Source: Candidatus Nanopelagicaceae bacterium
GTDB taxonomy: Archaea; Asgardarchaeota; Lokiarchaeia; Sigyniarchaeales; SOKP01
Direction of reading: 5' to 3'
Assembly: GCA_035530895.1 (NCBI GenBank)
Contig: DATKTW010000106.1
Coordinates: 1 to 55,361, forward strand
Length of the DNA stretch: 55,361 nt
The position numbers and the translations under genes are program-made. Each line of letters opens with the position of its first letter. Position 1 is the first letter of the stretch. Shown piece by piece: positions 28,127 through 51,381 of the stretch. The notes beneath the pieces were generated by a model. It saw only the letters and a list, made by a program, of their open reading frames with translations. It did no database searches and was not told the origin of the DNA.

Positions 28127-28549
28127 CTAACTCCAAGCAACCTTATTGATAAAAATCGACCACTCAAGCAAGATAAGTCCCATATCTTGCGTATGGGCTA
28201 TTATGTATTCTCCTTCTTTCGTAACGGACCCAACTATATTGCCTTTTCCTCCAACGATATTTTTTGCCGCTAGTTGTATCTCATCGTTTTTTAAAATGGC
28301 ATATCTATAACTCTGGAACATTAAAGCAGGTTCATTTTCTTTCCACGCTTTTAAGATGGCTTTCGCTTCTTCATCAGATAATTGGAATTCTTCAGATTTA
28401 AAAAGGATTTCACTTTCAGGACTCAACACGAAAATCTCTTCCATACCGTCATATTCCCTTAATTCTTCTACTAAATAATTAAACCGTTGTAGTTCCATAT
28501 CTCCACCATAATTTTCTAATATTGTATTTAATGAATCATAAAACCACAA
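28127..28549 (-). CDS. profilin-like protein
   Basis: 140 aa. N-terminal W-x2-Y-x3-L pattern (MWFYDSLNTIL). Core YRYAILKNDEIQLAAKN..GGKGNIVGSVTKEGEYIIAHT parallels the profilin segment xKYxxLRxDxxxIxGKKGxxGxxxxKT. TTG start. Confidence 0.6.
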   Translation of the reverse strand: MWFYDSLNTILENYGGDMELQRFNYLVEELREYDGMEEIFVLSPESEILFKSEEFQLSDEEAKAILKAWKENEPALMFQSYRYAILKNDEIQLAAKNIVGGKGNIVGSVTKEGEYIIAHTQDMGLILLEWSIFINKVAWS

Positions 28550-28682
28550 GAATATAAATTTTGTTAGAATGAAAGAAAGTCAGAATTAAATACGTTCTTG
28601 ATATAATGTGAGAAAAAGAGAAATTTTAGATTTAAGCAATTCTTTCTAATATTATTCATAATACTAATTTTTGAGAATTTTT

Positions 28683-29477
28683 ATGGTAAAAACACTGGTT
28701 CTATACGATCAAATATATAATATCCCAAAAAAAGGCAATATCAAAGATATATCGATAAGATACCTTAAATATTTAAAAGAATTAACCCAGAGCTTTCCGG
28801 ACACCAAAATACATATTAAGAAATTAAGGAAATTTGATAATAGGTTTGAAATTCTCATATCAGGTTCCGAAGAAGTATTCATTTTAAACATACTAAAAAA
28901 AAAGATTGGGGCTATCCATGAATTTGATACTGTTAAGACAAACGATATCTTTAAAGGAGTCTTACTGGATGTAGGAAAAGTAGGCTTTGGAATTTTTGTA
29001 GACTGTGCCATTGTAAACCCTAAGGTAGATGTATTATTAAACCTCTATGACATACGAACTCAACTGTGTAATGGAAAAAATGTTTCATTGCCAGAAATTA
29101 TTAAGGCTTATGATTTTATTAATAAATTCCCTGTTTATATGAAAGTAGTTACGATAAATAAAGAAAAACAACAAATCCAAGGCATTTTGGATCAAAAAAC
29201 TTTAGACTTTTACGAAAAACTGATTTCAGAGAATCTCGAGGCGGTTTTTGTCAGTGGTGAAACTAAAGGTCAATTTAAAAAAGCACTTGTGAACACCGGT
29301 CATTTTCGAGACATTGTTTCAATAGAGCGATTCGGATTTTTAGAAAACATTGTAATATTAAGAGAATCTACTACTGCTCCAGGAATTATCGCAGATATAG
29401 GAAAACATCTTAAAAACTGCAAATTAAATGCAATTCGGCCCGAAAGAATTAAGAAATTATATAAATCGAAATTATAA
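28683..29477 (+). CDS. hypothetical protein
   Basis: 264-aa ORF from the ATG at 28683 (the track starts at the TTG at 28671). No family recognised. Confidence 0.5.
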   Translation: MVKTLVLYDQIYNIPKKGNIKDISIRYLKYLKELTQSFPDTKIHIKKLRKFDNRFEILISGSEEVFILNILKKKIGAIHEFDTVKTNDIFKGVLLDVGKVGFGIFVDCAIVNPKVDVLLNLYDIRTQLCNGKNVSLPEIIKAYDFINKFPVYMKVVTINKEKQQIQGILDQKTLDFYEKLISENLEAVFVSGETKGQFKKALVNTGHFRDIVSIERFGFLENIVILRESTTAPGIIADIGKHLKNCKLNAIRPERIKKLYKSKL

Positions 29478-29478
29478 A

Positions 29479-29642
29479 TGGTGGGCCCAGGGAGGTTTTC
29501 GATTAAGCGATACATTCGCTTAAAAATCGAACTCCCGAGCTTCTCGGTGTATTCTCGAATAAAGTATGTATTATACCATATTAGCGAGACGTATTTTATT
29601 CAATTTCTAAAAATTGAATCATAACCACTAGACCATGGGCCC
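29479..29642 (-). tRNA. tRNA-Val (anticodon UAC after splicing), three introns, CCA encoded
   Basis: - Acceptor GGGCCCA/TGGGCCC, followed by ACCA.
- D arm GTCT-AGTGGTTA-TGAC.
- T arm GGGAG/CTCCC.
- Removing three BHB-consistent inserts leaves a 76-nt cloverleaf with anticodon loop CTTACAC.
- The inserts are at plus coordinates 29593-29619 (D arm), 29552-29582 (anticodon loop after U33) and 29495-29525 (T loop 59/60). Confidence 0.8.
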
Positions 29643-29792
29643 TTTTTTTGGGTTATTTAAAATAATTATTTTACATTTTATTAATTTTTTTAATTAGTTT
29701 AACCTTTTGATTATTAGATGTTAAAACATAAGTATTTAAAGAAAAAAGCAATTCGTTCTCGATTTTAAAGTATTAACCTTTTAAACAATAAG

Positions 29793-29894
29793 CGCAATCG
29801 GAGGGATTCGAACCCTCGAGTCCATTGGACACCGGATTAGCAATCCGGCGCTTTTGACACGCTTAAGCGTTCTACCAAGCTAAGCGACGATTGC
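29793..29894 (-). tRNA. tRNA-Ser (GCU) with short D-loop intron
   Basis: - Acceptor GCAATCG/CGATTGC.
- Anticodon arm CCGGA-TTGCTAA-TCCGG.
- Long variable arm.
- T arm GAGGG-TTCGAAT-CCCTC.
- An 18-nt insert (29854-29871) with the ACGC-TTAA-GCGT hairpin interrupts the D loop. Confidence 0.8.
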
Positions 29895-30078
29895 TTAATG
29901 TTAGTATAAATTCCAAACGATATATTTTGTATATAAAAATTTAAAATTTTAATACTTTTTCATTGTATTGAGGAGATTATGTGAAAGGAAATTAATTCTT
30001 TAAATAAAAAAAAAGCTTAGATAATTCTAATAATAGAAGGAAAAAAAAGAAAAAAGAAAGTCGCTAACGAGAAATCAT

Positions 30079-30561
30079 TTATTCTTGGATGATCTCAAAA
30101 ACCATTTTCTCGATCATAGGTTTTTTTGTATACCGCTTATCGTAATACCAACCCACCATATGCCCCTCTAACTCCTTTTCTGGCATATGAGGAATTATAA
30201 TAATCATAACCCCGTTTGAAAGATATTTAAGTATCCTCTTATCAATTTGGTGCAGTTTATCGTTTCCAGATGGATGTGTGTGTGCCTGCCAGACTATATC
30301 TACGTTAAGTTCCTGTTTAAACTTACGCATGTTATAAATTTTTGACTTTTTATACCTCATCCAACTTCTTGGTTTTACGTGGGTTTTTGATTTTCTTAAA
30401 TCTGGATTAATGATAAATTTCTTAACAATTCCAAAGTTTTCTTTACGATCAGCAAAAATCCAATAGTGTTCGATATTTGGATAAACCTCTGCGGCTTTCT
30501 GGGTAATTTCTTTAAATAATCGATCTGGTATCAAATACCTAAAATTTTTTGCAGCACTCAT
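30079..30561 (-). CDS. JAB1/MPN/JAMM-like metalloprotease (variant motif)
   Basis: 160 aa. HTHPSGNDKLHQID fits HxHx7(S)xxD, but with His in the Ser position. An upstream Glu is present (NIEHYW). Confidence 0.5.
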   Translation of the reverse strand: MSAAKNFRYLIPDRLFKEITQKAAEVYPNIEHYWIFADRKENFGIVKKFIINPDLRKSKTHVKPRSWMRYKKSKIYNMRKFKQELNVDIVWQAHTHPSGNDKLHQIDKRILKYLSNGVMIIIIPHMPEKELEGHMVGWYYDKRYTKKPMIEKMVFEIIQE

Positions 30562-30808
30562 TTTTACATCATCTCAACTATGAGTCAATGTAACATAAAA
30601 TTTATATTTTTTCTTTAATGTCATCATAAAGGTTAGGAATTACGAGATTAAAATAAAAAGAAATTTATTTTATTAAAAATAAACTATTTTTATACCTATA
30701 ATACAATAATAAAAATAAAAAATTTCTACATATAGGCTAAAACTATATGCAGATAATTTTTAGGAATATTTTTCCATAATTATTCTGCGTAGAATTAAAA
30801 TAATTAGA

Positions 30809-30909
30809 GCACCTGTAGCCTAGTGGTAAGACGCTGGCCTTGAGTAGATAATACGATCAAGTAAGCCAGTGCGCGTAAGCGCTCGGGGGTTCAAATCCCT
30901 CCAGGTGCG
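30809..30909 (+). tRNA. tRNA-Ser (UGA) with canonical 37/38 intron
   Basis: - Acceptor GCACCTG/CAGGTGC.
- Anticodon stem CTGGC/GCCAG.
- Loop CTTGAG|intron|A.
- The 19-nt intron (30845-30863) forms a textbook BHB: CTTG pairs CAAG, with bulges AGT and TAA.
- Long variable arm GCGC-GTAA-GCGC. Confidence 0.85.
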
Positions 30910-30934
30910 TTTTCAATGGCAACCAATACTAAAT

Positions 30935-31038
30935 GGGCTATTAGCGCAGTCAGGTAGCGCATCCGGCTCTTAACCGGCAGGTCGGGGGTTCGATACCTCC
31001 ATTCAGAAAGCATGGAGGCGAAATTCCCTCATAGCCCG
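30935..31038 (+). tRNA. tRNA-Lys (CUU) with T-loop intron at 59/60
   Basis: - Acceptor GGGCTAT/ATAGCCC.
- D arm GCGC-AGTCAGGTA-GCGC.
- Anticodon loop CTCTTAA.
- The T arm GGGGG...CCCTC is interrupted by a 30-nt insert (30995-31024) with a perfect BHB: TTCG pairs CGAA, bulges ATA and ATT, inner hairpin CCTCCAT/ATGGAGG.
- The spliced T loop is TTCGATT. Confidence 0.85.
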
Positions 31039-31070
31039 CTTGTTCTTTAATAAAAAGTGATAATACCTTA

Positions 31071-32024
31071 TTATAAATATTGGAATATTACTTCAAAATC
31101 AGAGAAATCAAAAGGTTTTAAAATGTAACCATCAGCATTACTTTCTTCGAGATGCTTTTCTACTTCTGAACCTGGTATAGCAGTTAACAAATAAACCGAA
31201 ATGTTTTGATGCTCTTTACTTGATTTAATCTGTTTGCAGATATCATAACCACTATAATCAGGTAAAATAATATCAAGCAATACCAACTTAGGTGGGTTAT
31301 TTGCTAGCTCTTCCAATCCTTTTGTTCCACTTACTACCCCCTTACAGGAAAAACCTTTGCTTTCAAAATAGCTTGTTAATAAACGAATAGTAGCTAAATC
31401 ATCTTCAATTAATAATATATCGTATTGAAGAGTTTCTGTTTTTATATTGTCCAGAATGTTGATAATTTTCTTCTCTAAAAGTAGAGATTGATTAAATATA
31501 TTTTGAATGGTATTAAAAACACTTTCGTCCATTTCATCACGATAATTTTCAATCAATAGCTGAGAAAATCCTTTGATTGACGTTAACGGTTCCTTTAGAG
31601 CATGCGATATGTTTGTGAGAGTTTGATTGTTTATTTTATGCAAATCTTCATTGATTAGAGTGGATTCTTGCTTAATAAAATAGTTAACACTCTCCCGTAT
31701 AAGTTTGGAAATGGTGTTATATTTATTTTTATGAGTTTTTATAAACTTGCTCCACTCTTCTTTGGTTTTGTCAGTTACATACAAGGAAATGCGCTCCTTT
31801 TCTCTGTCGTATATTTTTTCTCCTTTAAGCCATTTCATAAAACCTTCTGTTATGTTTCCACGCCATTTAGCATACTTATCCGTTGTGTCCTCATACTCCC
31901 TCATTAGTTTTTTCGCTTGTTCGCTATTCAAATCCAGATTATTTATTTCTTCGTCAGTCATATTTGGACTTGTGTGATTTTCCTTACCATTAGAATTACT
32001 ATCGTTCTTTTTTTCGTTAGGCAT
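31071..32024 (-). CDS. RHH-like domain + HisKA (H-box) + receiver domain protein, no HATPase domain
   Basis: - H-box ISHALKEPLTSIKGFSQLL.
- Complete REC domain (LIEDD, VLLDIILPD, LLTA, ILKPF) directly after the dimerisation helices.
- N-terminal ERISLYVTDKTKEEWSKFI...ISKLIRESVNYFI looks like a ribbon-helix-helix. Confidence 0.7.
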   Translation of the reverse strand: MPNEKKNDSNSNGKENHTSPNMTDEEINNLDLNSEQAKKLMREYEDTTDKYAKWRGNITEGFMKWLKGEKIYDREKERISLYVTDKTKEEWSKFIKTHKNKYNTISKLIRESVNYFIKQESTLINEDLHKINNQTLTNISHALKEPLTSIKGFSQLLIENYRDEMDESVFNTIQNIFNQSLLLEKKIINILDNIKTETLQYDILLIEDDLATIRLLTSYFESKGFSCKGVVSGTKGLEELANNPPKLVLLDIILPDYSGYDICKQIKSSKEHQNISVYLLTAIPGSEVEKHLEESNADGYILKPFDFSDFEVIFQYL

Positions 32025-50235: not shown

Positions 50236-51381
50236 ATGGCAGAAGAAGAAAGTTTTTTAAACGCGAAAGCCTTGGTGGTTGATAACGGAACTGGAATCTC
50301 CAAGAATGGCTTCGCTGGTGAAGACCAACCTCGTTCTGTATTTCCAACTCTTATTGGCTATCCAAAATATGAATCGATAATGACTGATGTTGAGCATTAC
50401 ACTCGTGAATACTATATCGGAGAAGAAGCAATGCAATTAAAAGGTGTTCTTAAGTTAATGTTTCCCGTAGAACATGGTATTATCGAAGATTGGACCGCAA
50501 TGGAAAAGATTTGGCATTACACTTTTTATACAGACTTGAGAATCGATCCTAGCGAACACCCGGTTCTATTAACTGAAGCTCCATTAAACCCTAGACCAAA
50601 CCGAGAAAAAATGGCTGAAATTATGTTTGAAACCTTTAATGTTCCAGCCCTTTATGTAGCAATGCAAGCAGTTTTGTCGCTATATGCTTCTGGTCGTACA
50701 ACGGGATGCGTCATAGATATTGGGGATGGAGTCTCTCACGTAGTACCTATTTTCGAAGGCTTTGCTCTAAGTCATGCAATCCAAAGAATCGATCTTGCTG
50801 GCCGTGATATCACAACGTACCTACAAAGATTACTCCGACAAAAAGGATACTCCTTTACAACTTCTGCAGAGAAAGAAATTGTTAGAGATATCAAAGAAAA
50901 ACTCTGCTATGTAGCAATCGATCCAGAGAAAGAAATGATGCTTTCAAAGAAAGTTGCTGGAATGGAAAAAAGCTACATGCTTCCTGACGGAGAAACTATA
51001 AATGTAGGTGTCGAACGATTTTTAGCACCTGAATGCTTCTTCAATCCATCAGTAATCGGGAAAGAATTAGAACCTCTCGATGATGTAATTGTCGGTGCTA
51101 TTTCAGAATGTGATGTCGACCTTCGTAGAGACCTTTATGGCAATATTGTACTTTCTGGTGGTTCAACAATGTTCCCTGGAATCAAGGAAAGATTAACAAA
51201 AGAAATTAAAGAACAGATTCCAGAATCAGTTGATGTCAAGATTATAGCCCCTCCAGAACGTATGTATTCCGTATGGATTGGTGGTTCAATCTTAAGTTCC
51301 TTGAAAACATTCCACAGAATGTGGGTAACTAGAAGGGAATATAAAGAAATGGGACCACAAGTCATTCACAGATGCTTCTAA
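50236..51381 (+). CDS. actin homologue (lokiactin-like)
   Basis: 381 aa, colinear with eukaryotic actin. Matching segments: [88 protein letters not shown], and GGSTMFPG...[16 protein letters not shown]. Confidence 0.9.

What the first reader, a model, noticed from the sequence alone, without database searches (positions are those of the whole stretch)
29479..29642. tRNA-Val gene interrupted by three introns, two at non-canonical positions
- The 164-nt gene folds into a canonical 76-nt tRNA-Val(UAC) only after three inserts of 27, 31 and 30 nt are removed.
- Each insert is flanked by a 4-bp helix plus 3-nt bulges, the BHB geometry used by the archaeal splicing endonuclease.
- The helices are GTTA/TAAA (one mismatch), CTCG/CGAG and TTCG/CGAA.
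- Applying the cleavage register seen in the canonical Ser(UGA) intron of this window restores loops of exactly 7 nt.
- The anticodon-loop intron sits after U33, not at 37/38, so the anticodon is assembled by splicing.
- Triple-intron tRNAs are known mainly from Thermoproteales. Finding one here is notable.
Basis: partly seen in the sequence, partly recalled or inferred. Interest (0 to 1): 0.65.

Follow-up and report, generated by a model that had tools for sequence, protein, structure and literature searches.

The report
Three-intron tRNA-Val gene, Asgard archaeon
This is a real valine tRNA gene of an Asgard archaeon, cut into four pieces by three short introns; such multi-intron tRNA genes are already reported in Asgard archaea, so it is a good new example rather than a new kind of thing.

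Summary
On the minus strand, 29642→29479 is a 164-nt gene. Removing 27, 31 and 30 nt leaves a perfect 76-nt tRNA-Val(UAC) (ARAGORN). The unspliced gene is invisible to ARAGORN and to the Rfam tRNA model.

The three junctions (23/24, 33/34, 59/60) are confirmed by comparison. Syntenic tRNA-Val(UAC) genes were found in 62 Asgard MAG loci. They carry 0, 1, 2 or 3 of these inserts, and the intron-less genes join exactly at the predicted junctions. Each insert sits in a bulge-helix-bulge motif. The helices show compensatory changes: at 59/60, G-C versus A-U in the central helix, with 0 of 500 shuffles reaching the observed pairing.

Five soil metagenomes reproduce the three-intron allele exactly. 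Strains about 99.7% identical in three other metagenomes lack precisely intron 1.

No spliced RNA could be found, so splicing is inferred.

The organism is an Asgard archaeon (31.7% GC, actin homologue in the window). tRNA genes with 3-4 introns in Asgard archaea were published in 2024. Verdict: correct, new member of a known kind, moderate-to-low interest.

The parts
29479..29642 (-). Complete tRNA-Val(UAC) gene: 164 nt, four exons, three introns, CCA encoded
   Evidence: The spliced 76-mer is ARAGORN tRNA-Val(tac). Contigs in 5 soil metagenomes are identical.
29620..29642 (-). Exon 1, tRNA nt 1-23: acceptor 5' strand, D-stem 5' strand, D-loop, U22 and G23
   Evidence: Contiguous with exon 2 in orthologues L001, L002, L007, L008, L017 and L031 and in strains in X7, X9 and X12.
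29593..29619 (-). Intron 1, 27 nt, at 23/24 inside the 3' strand of the D-stem. BHB: central helix GUUA/UAAA (G.A mismatch), bulges UG|A and AU|A, 8-bp inner hairpin
   Evidence: Exactly these 27 nt are missing in otherwise ~99.7% identical DNA contigs of X7, X9 and X12.
29583..29592 (-). Exon 2, tRNA nt 24-33: A24, C25, G26, anticodon-stem 5' strand, C32, U33
29552..29582 (-). Intron 2, 31 nt, at 33/34 in the anticodon loop. BHB: central helix CUCG/CGAG (4/4), bulges CU|A and AA|U, 2-bp outer helix, interrupted inner helix
   Evidence: Absent at exactly this junction in L002, L007, L012, L015, L031 and others.
29526..29551 (-). Exon 3, tRNA nt 34-59: anticodon UAC, anticodon-stem 3' strand, variable loop, T-stem 5' strand, T-loop nt 54-59
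29496..29525 (-). Intron 3, 30 nt, at 59/60 in the T-loop. BHB: central helix UUCG/CGAA (4/4), bulges AU|U and AA|C, outer helix is the 5-bp T-stem, 8-bp inner hairpin after a U.U mismatch
   Evidence: Absent at exactly this junction in L005, L010-L017, L031 and others.
29479..29495 (-). Exon 4, tRNA nt 60-76: C60, T-stem 3' strand, acceptor 3' strand, A73, CCA
   Evidence: Some orthologues read ACTA or ATTA, so an encoded CCA is not universal.
29793..29894 (-). Neighbouring tRNA-Ser(GCU) gene upstream on the same strand, with a 17-nt BHB-like intron (29854-29870) at the D-loop/D-stem border
   Evidence: Rfam gives only a partial hit of 32 bits. The spliced form is ARAGORN tRNA-Ser(gct). The insert is conserved with compensatory hairpin changes.
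30935..31038 (+). Neighbouring tRNA-Lys(CUU) gene with a 30-nt 59/60 intron (30995-31024). It uses the same UUCG/CGAA BHB as Val intron 3
   Evidence: The spliced form is identical to the intron-less L009 gene, which scores 66.6 bits with the Rfam tRNA model.
30809..30909 (+). Neighbouring tRNA-Ser(UGA) gene with a canonical 37/38 intron of 19 nt (30845-30863).
   Evidence: Rfam 47 bits. The spliced form is ARAGORN tRNA-Ser(tga).

Best explanation
This is the functional tRNA-Val(UAC) gene of an Asgard archaeon, probably of the class Promethearchaeia (Lokiarchaeia-like).

Proposed pathway (the gene structure and junctions are shown; every processing step below is inferred):
1. The gene is transcribed as a precursor of about 164 nt that cannot form a cloverleaf. 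Three inserts sit in the D-stem (23/24), the anticodon loop (33/34) and the T-loop (59/60).
2. Each insert and its flanks fold into a bulge-helix-bulge motif: two 3-nt bulges separated by a 4-bp helix. The 5' strand of that helix is exon sequence and the 3' strand is the 3' end of the intron.
3. The archaeal splicing endonuclease EndA cuts after the second nucleotide of each bulge.
4. An RtcB-type ligase joins the four exons and probably circularises the introns.
5. The product is a 76-nt tRNA with 7-nt anticodon and T loops and anticodon UAC.

The introns are old, homologous, fast-evolving elements. They are kept only for their BHB shape, and they are gained or lost precisely and often, even between strains.
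For: Product:
- The spliced 76-mer is a perfect tRNA-Val(tac). Of the 8 combinations of removed inserts, only removal of all three gives anticodon UAC.
- Intron-less orthologues L031 and L017 differ by 2-3 nt and score 67.9 and 64.9 bits with Rfam tRNA.

Junctions:
- 62 syntenic Asgard loci carry the orthologue with 0 (29 loci), 1 (21), 2 (9) or 3 (3) introns.
- All 63 spliced forms, window included, are ARAGORN Val(tac).
- Orthologues lacking an intron are contiguous exactly at the predicted junctions.
- DNA contigs in X7, X9 and X12 lack exactly 29593-29619.

BHB motifs:
- Every intron at sites 23/24, 33/34 and 59/60 fits the same BHB register.
- Site 59/60: 94% of cells paired, 9 pairs with changes on both sides, 0 of 500 shuffles as good. 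Sliding the partner drops pairing to 45-63%. The central pair is G57-C in 7 sequences and A57-U in 6.
- Site 23/24: 98% paired, 4 pairs with double changes.
- Site 33/34: central pair 2 is U-A in 5, G-C in 2 and G-U in 1.

Selection: exons are 94% identical and introns 74% identical over the same comparisons.

Not an artefact: contigs in five soil metagenomes are identical to the window.

Context:
- All four tRNA genes in the window carry BHB introns.
- Asgard archaea are reported to encode (alpha-beta)2 EndA with the L1 loop, the loop that gives crenarchaeal enzymes broad substrate specificity (PMC5829648).
- They are also reported to have tRNA genes with up to 3-4 introns (PMC11291895).
Against: - No spliced RNA was observed. 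The only RNA-derived contigs matching this gene family (X24, X25, X26) come from relatives, retain an intron and run into the flanks. They are precursors or DNA carry-over.
- Intron 1 in this window has a G.A mismatch in the central helix where 11 of 14 orthologues have G.U.
- The inner helix of intron 2 is interrupted next to the bulge.
- The thermodynamic MFE does not adopt the exact BHB registers. Imposing them costs 1.8-4.3 kcal/mol each and 9 kcal/mol together.
- The outer helices of introns 1 and 2 compete for G26 and U27 (my reading of the sequence).
- EndA and RtcB genes are not in the window, so their presence in this genome rests on the literature for other Asgard genomes.
Confidence: 0.9

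Rival explanations
1. A decaying pseudogene. A former tRNA-Val gene was broken by three insertions and is no longer used, and another intact copy serves the cell.
For: Standard finders see no tRNA here. Intron 1 has a mismatched central helix. The rest of the genome is not available to check for a second copy.
Against: The exons are 100% identical to those of L007 and 94% identical on average across relatives, while the introns diverge to 74%. The same syntenic locus holds the Val(UAC) gene in 62 other genomes, with or without introns. The BHB helices keep pairing through compensatory changes, which a dead gene would not do.
Confidence: 0.04
2. The gene is real but the splice register is different. 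For example, a one-nucleotide shift of intron 2 would give anticodon AAC, or a different T-loop cut would follow the 6-bp helix seen in the MFE.
For: With introns 1 and 3 removed, ARAGORN's canonical-intron model calls Val(aac) with a 31-nt intron shifted by one. The MFE extends the UUCG/CGAA helix to 6 bp and places a UUU bulge.
Against: Orthologues without intron 2 read CGCTTACACCG, giving U34 A35 C36. Orthologues without intron 3 read TTCGATCCTCCC. The shifted cuts would give a 9-nt T-loop or an A34 anticodon. An A34 tRNA-Val is not expected in archaea (my own knowledge, not tested). The BHB rule of 4 bp between bulges and a cut after the second bulge nucleotide gives the orthologue sequence at all six sites.
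Confidence: 0.02
3. The inserts are kept in the mature RNA as extra arms, or the molecule is a non-tRNA structured RNA.
For: The 164-nt RNA folds much better than shuffles (z = -5.8). RNA contigs from relatives retain an intron.
Against: The inserts split the D-stem, enlarge the anticodon loop to 38 nt and break the T-loop, which is incompatible with tRNA function. Close relatives do without each insert. The RNA contigs extend into the flanks, so they are not mature molecules.
Confidence: 0.02
4. An assembly or binning artefact, that is, a chimera of alleles.
For: Alleles with and without intron 1 exist in nature, so mixed assemblies are conceivable.
Against: Contigs covering the whole gene with zero differences are present in five independent soil metagenome runs, X1-X5. 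L009, L035 and L051 independently show three-intron genes at the same sites.
Confidence: 0.01

Closest known systems
Multi-intron tRNA genes of Asgard archaea (Atabeyarchaeia and Freyarchaeia; Valentin-Alvarado et al. 2024, PMC11291895)
   Same: Same superphylum. 92-95% of their tRNA genes carry introns, often at non-canonical positions. More than half have several introns, and individual genes have 3-4. In this window 4 of 4 tRNA genes have introns and 5 of 6 introns are non-canonical.
   Different: Different lineage: 31.7% GC, and the nearest named MAGs are Promethearchaeia (Lokiarchaeia-like). In their tables Val(UAC) has a single intron, whereas here it has three at 23/24, 33/34 and 59/60. 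The text and supplement passages I read report predictions from tRNAscan-SE and R2DT, and I saw no intron presence/absence comparison across orthologues there.
Multiple-intron tRNA genes of Thermoproteales and other Crenarchaeota (Sugahara et al. 2008; reviewed in PMC4090602)
   Same: Up to three BHB introns per gene. Non-canonical sites include 22/23, 53/54, 56/57 and 59/60. Processing is by (alpha-beta)2 EndA carrying the specific loop.
   Different: Different phylum and habitat: mesophilic, AT-rich sediment and soil archaeon versus hyperthermophiles. No sign here of the same intron sequence copied into different tRNA genes, as described for Thermoproteales intron transposition (only about 1.3 Mb was searched).
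tRNA-Thr(GGU) locus heterogeneity in a Caldiarchaeum subterraneum population (Sugahara et al. 2012, PMC3293823)
   Same: tRNA alleles with different intron numbers at strain or sub-strain level, accompanied by replacement of adjacent sequence and attributed to recombination at the tRNA gene. Here the allele without intron 1 is also linked to a replaced 143-nt spacer.
   Different: No integrase-bearing insertion or tRNA fragment is seen next to this gene. The difference is a 27-nt intron plus a 143-nt versus 17-nt spacer.
Ectopic and multiple tRNA introns in Cyanidioschyzon merolae and in nucleomorphs (PMC3728597, PMC4090602)
   Same: Introns in D and T arms, up to three per gene, with BHB-dependent recognition proposed.
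   Different: These are eukaryotic nuclear or nucleomorph genes, with no evidence of direct descent. This window is archaeal.

Membership tests
Archaeal BHB (hBHBh') tRNA intron | Two 3-nt bulges on opposite strands separated by a 4-bp helix, with the splice sites after the second nucleotide of each bulge | tested here: met
   I2 is CUCG/CGAG (4/4) and I3 is UUCG/CGAA (4/4). I1 is GUUA/UAAA (3/4, G.A mismatch), i.e. slightly relaxed. The register gives the orthologue sequence at all six sites.
Archaeal BHB (hBHBh') tRNA intron | Flanking helices h and h' of at least 2 bp on both sides | tested here: inconclusive
   Outer helices: I1 3 bp (1 G-C, 2 G.U), I2 2 bp, I3 5 bp (the T-stem). Inner helices: I1 8 bp; I3 8 bp after a U.U mismatch; I2 1 bp, then an internal loop, then 5 bp. 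I2, and I3 next to the bulge, are relaxed rather than strict.
Archaeal BHB (hBHBh') tRNA intron | Removal restores a canonical cloverleaf tRNA | tested here: met
   ARAGORN Val(tac), 76 nt. Near-identical intron-less orthologues score 65-68 bits with Rfam tRNA.
Archaeal BHB (hBHBh') tRNA intron | Structure, not sequence, is conserved (covariation in the BHB helices) | tested here: met
   0 of 500 shuffles reach the observed pairing or covariation score, and slid-partner controls fall to 38-63% paired. One search covers site 33/34.
Archaeal BHB (hBHBh') tRNA intron | Cut by EndA and joined by RtcB in vivo; introns released, often as circles | not testable with these tools
   No spliced or circular-intron reads were found. 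RNA contigs X24, X25 and X26 are unspliced and come from relatives.
Archaeal BHB (hBHBh') tRNA intron | Host encodes a broad-specificity endonuclease ((alpha-beta)2 with the L1 loop, or epsilon2) able to cut non-canonical or relaxed motifs | not tested
   No EndA gene in the 55-kb window. The literature reports (alpha-beta)2 EndA with the L1 loop in Asgard archaea (PMC5829648).
Multiple-intron tRNA gene (three or more introns) | Three separate, non-overlapping introns in one contiguous gene, not a split or permuted gene | tested here: met
   Four collinear exons on one strand within 164 nt. The same architecture is seen in L009, L035 and L051.

The most novel reading that the evidence does not exclude
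The BHB introns of this gene may be cassettes in active turnover rather than mere relics. Strains about 99.7% identical differ by the exact 27-nt intron 1, together with a swapped block in the Ser-Val spacer (143 nt versus 17 nt). Across 63 orthologues, five insertion sites are filled in almost every combination. This would mean that in the closest archaeal relatives of eukaryotes, tRNA introns are moved between alleles or erased precisely and frequently. Possible routes are recombination with break points in tRNA exons, or copying back from spliced RNA. If so, rates and mechanisms of intron gain and loss could be measured from existing metagenomes.
Probability: 0.3. Interest if true: 0.55.

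Novelty: new member of a known kind. Interest (0 to 1): 0.32.

Why it matters
It confirms that standard tRNA finders miss essential tRNA genes in Asgard genomes. ARAGORN and the Rfam tRNA model both find nothing at this gene, so tRNA counts, and any gene-content or completeness judgements that lean on them, can be too low. It extends the published picture of intron-rich Asgard tRNA genes to a Lokiarchaeia-like lineage. It also provides one orthologous locus with 63 alleles in which three to five intron sites are present or absent in many combinations, including a strain-level polymorphism. That is a convenient natural data set for studying how BHB introns are gained and lost in the lineage nearest to eukaryotes. 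It does not reveal a new mechanism.

Tried and rejected
- ARAGORN on the window and on the unspliced gene found nothing. Rfam at E<=10 on 29300-31200 gave no hit on the gene. Neither argues against a tRNA, because neither handles non-canonical introns.
- Looking up the neighbouring 397-aa protein by exact sequence found nothing on record.
- RNA evidence, run X24 (seawater metatranscriptome): one contig from a relative that has intron 1 but not introns 2 and 3, and that runs into foreign flanks. It says nothing about splicing of this gene.
- RNA evidence, runs X25 and X26 (estuary metatranscriptomes): nothing lays on the window. On L007 the contigs cover the spacer, the gene with intron 3 retained, and downstream sequence. 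This is precursor or DNA carry-over.
- I searched for copies of the six window introns elsewhere in the window and the 80 loci to test intron transposition. Hits fell only in orthologous positions, plus one weak 15-nt chance match.
- Free-energy folding was tried as a test of the BHBs. The MFE forms the intron hairpins and the central helices of introns 2 and 3, but shifts the bulges. The enforced BHB conformer is 9 kcal/mol less stable. I judged this uninformative because bulges are penalised by the energy model and the enzyme stabilises them.
- The ARAGORN alternative Val(aac) was rejected by the orthologues.
- A crude scan for further hidden tRNAs (GC islands, T-loop motif) found none outside the 29.5-31.0 kb cluster.

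Full report
**What is in the sequence**

The stretch 29479-29642 read on the minus strand begins GGGCCCAUGGUCUAGUGGUUAUG and ends CCUCCCUGGGCCCACCA. These are a typical archaeal tRNA 5' part and a T-stem/acceptor 3' part with CCA.

Between them lie three inserts. Removing 27 nt (29619-29593), 31 nt (29582-29552) and 30 nt (29525-29496) leaves 23+10+26+17 = 76 nt. ARAGORN draws this as a perfect tRNA-Val(tac) cloverleaf with a 7-bp acceptor stem, 7-nt anticodon loop CUUACAC and 7-nt T-loop UUCGAUC.

The unspliced gene is not detected by ARAGORN. The Rfam tRNA model does not detect it even at E<=10. Of the eight combinations of removed inserts, only removal of all three gives anticodon UAC.

In standard numbering the introns lie at 23/24 (inside the 3' strand of the D-stem), 33/34 (anticodon loop) and 59/60 (T-loop). 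All three are therefore non-canonical. The anticodon triplet itself sits intact at the start of exon 3.

**The BHB motifs**

All three inserts use the same topology. Four exon nucleotides just upstream of the 5' bulge pair with the four intron nucleotides just upstream of the 3' bulge. Both bulges are 3 nt, and the cut falls after the second bulge nucleotide.

| Intron | Central helix | Bulges | Outer helix | Inner helix |
|---|---|---|---|---|
| I1 | GUUA/UAAA (3 pairs + G.A) | UG\|A, AU\|A | 3 weak pairs | 8 bp |
| I2 | CUCG/CGAG (4/4) | CU\|A, AA\|U | 2 bp | interrupted |
| I3 | UUCG/CGAA (4/4) | AU\|U, AA\|C | T-stem, 5 bp | 8 bp after a U.U mismatch |

Random pairs of coordinates in the window meet comparable criteria at 4e-4 to 4e-3.

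Plain energy minimisation forms the intron hairpins but shifts the bulges. Enforcing the exact BHBs costs 1.8-4.3 kcal/mol each. I regard that as uninformative.

**Whose gene it is**

The window is 31.7% G+C. It encodes archaeal informational proteins: proteasome alpha, SBDS, TFB, exosome subunits, RpoK, and Hef (an ERCC4-domain helicase-nuclease). It also encodes an actin homologue scoring 443 bits against Pfam Actin.

The proteasome alpha subunit finds 80 loci in GTDB genomes, all Asgard MAGs. The best match is 98% identical. The nearest class-level names are Promethearchaeia, isolates ABR11 and ABR04.

The region occurs in soil, aquatic and marine-sediment metagenomes.

**Comparative test of the junctions**

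The tRNA-Val(UAC) gene is syntenic with the proteasome gene in 62 of the 80 loci. A spliced alignment to the 76-mer shows a mosaic:

- 29 loci have no intron.
- 21 have one.
- 9 have two.
- 3 (L009, L035, L051) have three, at the same sites as the window.

Examples are GGTTATGACGTC, CGCTTACACCG and TTCGATCCTCCC.

After intron removal, all 63 genes are called Val(tac) by ARAGORN. Intron-less orthologues L031 and L017 differ from the window's spliced product by 2-3 nt. They score 67.9 and 64.9 bits with Rfam tRNA.

ARAGORN's alternative for intron 2 is a one-nucleotide shift giving anticodon AAC. These orthologues rule it out.

Two further sites, 17/18 and 53/54, are used in other MAGs.

**Covariation**

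- Site 59/60: the central pair with position 57 is G-C in 7 sequences and A-U in 6. Over 18 pairs, 94.4% of cells are paired. Nine pairs show changes on both sides. No shuffle out of 500 reaches the observed pairing or covariation score. Sliding the partner by 1-3 columns drops pairing to 45-63%.
- Site 23/24: 98.1% paired, four pairs with double changes, slid controls 38-50%. Eleven of 14 sequences have G.U where the window and L014 have G.A.
- Site 33/34: the second central pair is U-A (5), G-C (2), G-U (1) or U.C (3), following the exon change U29/G29.

Inner hairpins can be entirely different in sequence but are kept as hairpins.

Over the same comparisons, exons are 94% identical and introns 74%. 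L007 has 73 of 73 identical exon positions but only 22 of 30 in intron 3. This is the pattern expected for a used gene whose introns are constrained only in shape.

**Reality of the allele, and a polymorphism**

Contigs from five soil metagenome runs (X1-X5) match the whole gene with zero differences.

In X7, X9 and X12 the contigs show very few differences from the window. The X7 contig has 4 differing letters over 28339-29644. These contigs lack exactly 29593-29619, which is intron 1.

In X12 one contig links this allele to a different Ser(GCU)-Val spacer, where 143 nt (29650-29792) are replaced by 17 nt. The short-spacer arrangement, with Ser(GCU) about 22 nt upstream of Val, is also seen in many MAGs. 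The long spacer is shared with L005 and L009, both of which have intron 1.

One recombinational replacement spanning spacer, exon 1 and intron 1 would explain both differences. Two independent events cannot be excluded. A comparable situation was described for tRNA-Thr in a Caldiarchaeum population (PMC3293823).

**RNA evidence**

None is decisive.
- The one RNA run holding words of the gene (X24) has a contig from a relative that carries only intron 1 and has foreign flanks.
- Two estuary metatranscriptomes hold contigs of an L007-like organism. These span the spacer, the gene with intron 3 retained, and downstream sequence.
- These are precursors or DNA carry-over, not mature tRNA. Ordinary libraries do not capture mature tRNAs well.

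Splicing is therefore inferred, not shown.

**Mechanism**

- Shown: the gene structure, the BHB geometry, its conservation through compensatory change, and the exact junctions.
- Inferred from established knowledge of archaeal tRNA splicing: cleavage by EndA after the second bulge nucleotide, ligation by RtcB, and release of (probably circular) introns.
- Asgard archaea are reported to have (alpha-beta)2 EndA with the L1 loop. In Crenarchaeota that loop allows cleavage of non-canonical and relaxed motifs (PMC5829648). This fits the slightly relaxed I1 and I2 motifs.
- EndA and RtcB are not in this window.
- From the sequence, the outer helices of I1 and I2 both need G26 and U27. The two BHBs may therefore not be fully formed at the same time, and an order of removal is possible. 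This is speculation.

**Comparison with what is known**

- Multi-intron tRNA genes were first catalogued in Thermoproteales. Non-canonical sites such as 22/23, 53/54 and 59/60 are listed in reviews (PMC4090602).
- For Asgard archaea, Valentin-Alvarado et al. 2024 reported that 92-95% of tRNA genes of Atabeyarchaeia and Freyarchaeia have introns. More than half have several, and individual genes have 3-4. Val(UAC) has one intron in their tables.
- Kaneta et al. 2018 had already mapped disrupted tRNA gene types, including a multiple-intron category, across Asgard representatives that included a Lokiarchaeote.
- My literature searches found no paper specifically on Lokiarchaeia tRNA introns beyond these.

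The finding is therefore a correct identification and a new member of a known kind. It is not a first for its group in any broad sense.

**Verdict**

- Observation: confirmed.
- Interpretation: supported, with small corrections.
- Novelty: low to moderate.
- Most useful by-product: the 63-allele presence/absence series and the strain-level intron-1 polymorphism.

Noticed in passing
window 29793-29894 (-), insert 29854-29870: tRNA-Ser(GCU) has a 17-nt insert at the D-loop/D-stem border, with a GGUA/UGUC helix and GA|A and AA|A bulges. Rfam matches only model positions 10-63 at 32 bits. The spliced form is ARAGORN Ser(gct). The insert is present in L031, L017 and L009 with compensatory changes in its small hairpin.
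   Followed up: partly
window 30935-31038 (+), intron 30995-31024: tRNA-Lys(CUU) carries a 30-nt intron at 59/60 with a textbook hBHBh' motif (UUCG/CGAA, AU|A, AU|U, 7-bp inner helix). The spliced sequence is identical to the intron-less Lys gene of L009. Together with the other genes, all four tRNA genes in the window have introns: six introns, five of them non-canonical.
   Followed up: yes
window 29650-29792, and runs X6, X7, X9, X12: The spacer between Ser(GCU) and Val is polymorphic. In near-identical strains, 143 nt are replaced by the 17 nt ATGAAAGATTATTACAA. In X12 the short spacer is on the same contig as the allele lacking intron 1. X6 holds the window allele plus a minor short-spacer contig.
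   Followed up: partly
L020, L026, L039, L074, L080 (tRNA-Val orthologues): The same tRNA-Val gene has further intron sites in other Asgard MAGs: 17/18 (L020, 29 nt) and 53/54 (31-33 nt, CGGG/CCCG or CGGG/CUCG central helix). One orthologous gene therefore uses at least five insertion sites across the clade.
   Followed up: partly
L010, L013, L015, L016, about 25-70 nt upstream of tRNA-Val: The 3' part of the upstream tRNA-Ser(GCU) appears to carry its own T-loop (59/60) insert: TTCGAAT|ATCCCATTGATTGCAATAGGATCGAGAC|TCCCAC. The window's copy lacks it. Only the last 70 nt were inspected.
   Followed up: no
window 50236-51381 (+): A 381-aa protein scores 443 bits against Pfam Actin over its full length. 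This is an Asgard-type actin homologue and supports the taxonomic assignment.
   Followed up: no
L007 189-370, runs X25 and X26: Estuary metatranscriptome contigs run from the Ser-Val spacer through the Val gene (intron 3 retained) into the downstream region of an L007-like organism. This is compatible with a Ser-Val co-transcript precursor, but DNA carry-over cannot be excluded.
   Followed up: partly
window 29793-29840 (+): An Rfam sub-threshold hit to 'Plastid-psbl-rps4 3UTR' (36 bits, gathering score 68) is simply the antisense of the tRNA-Ser(GCU) T-arm. It is a false lead.
   Followed up: yes
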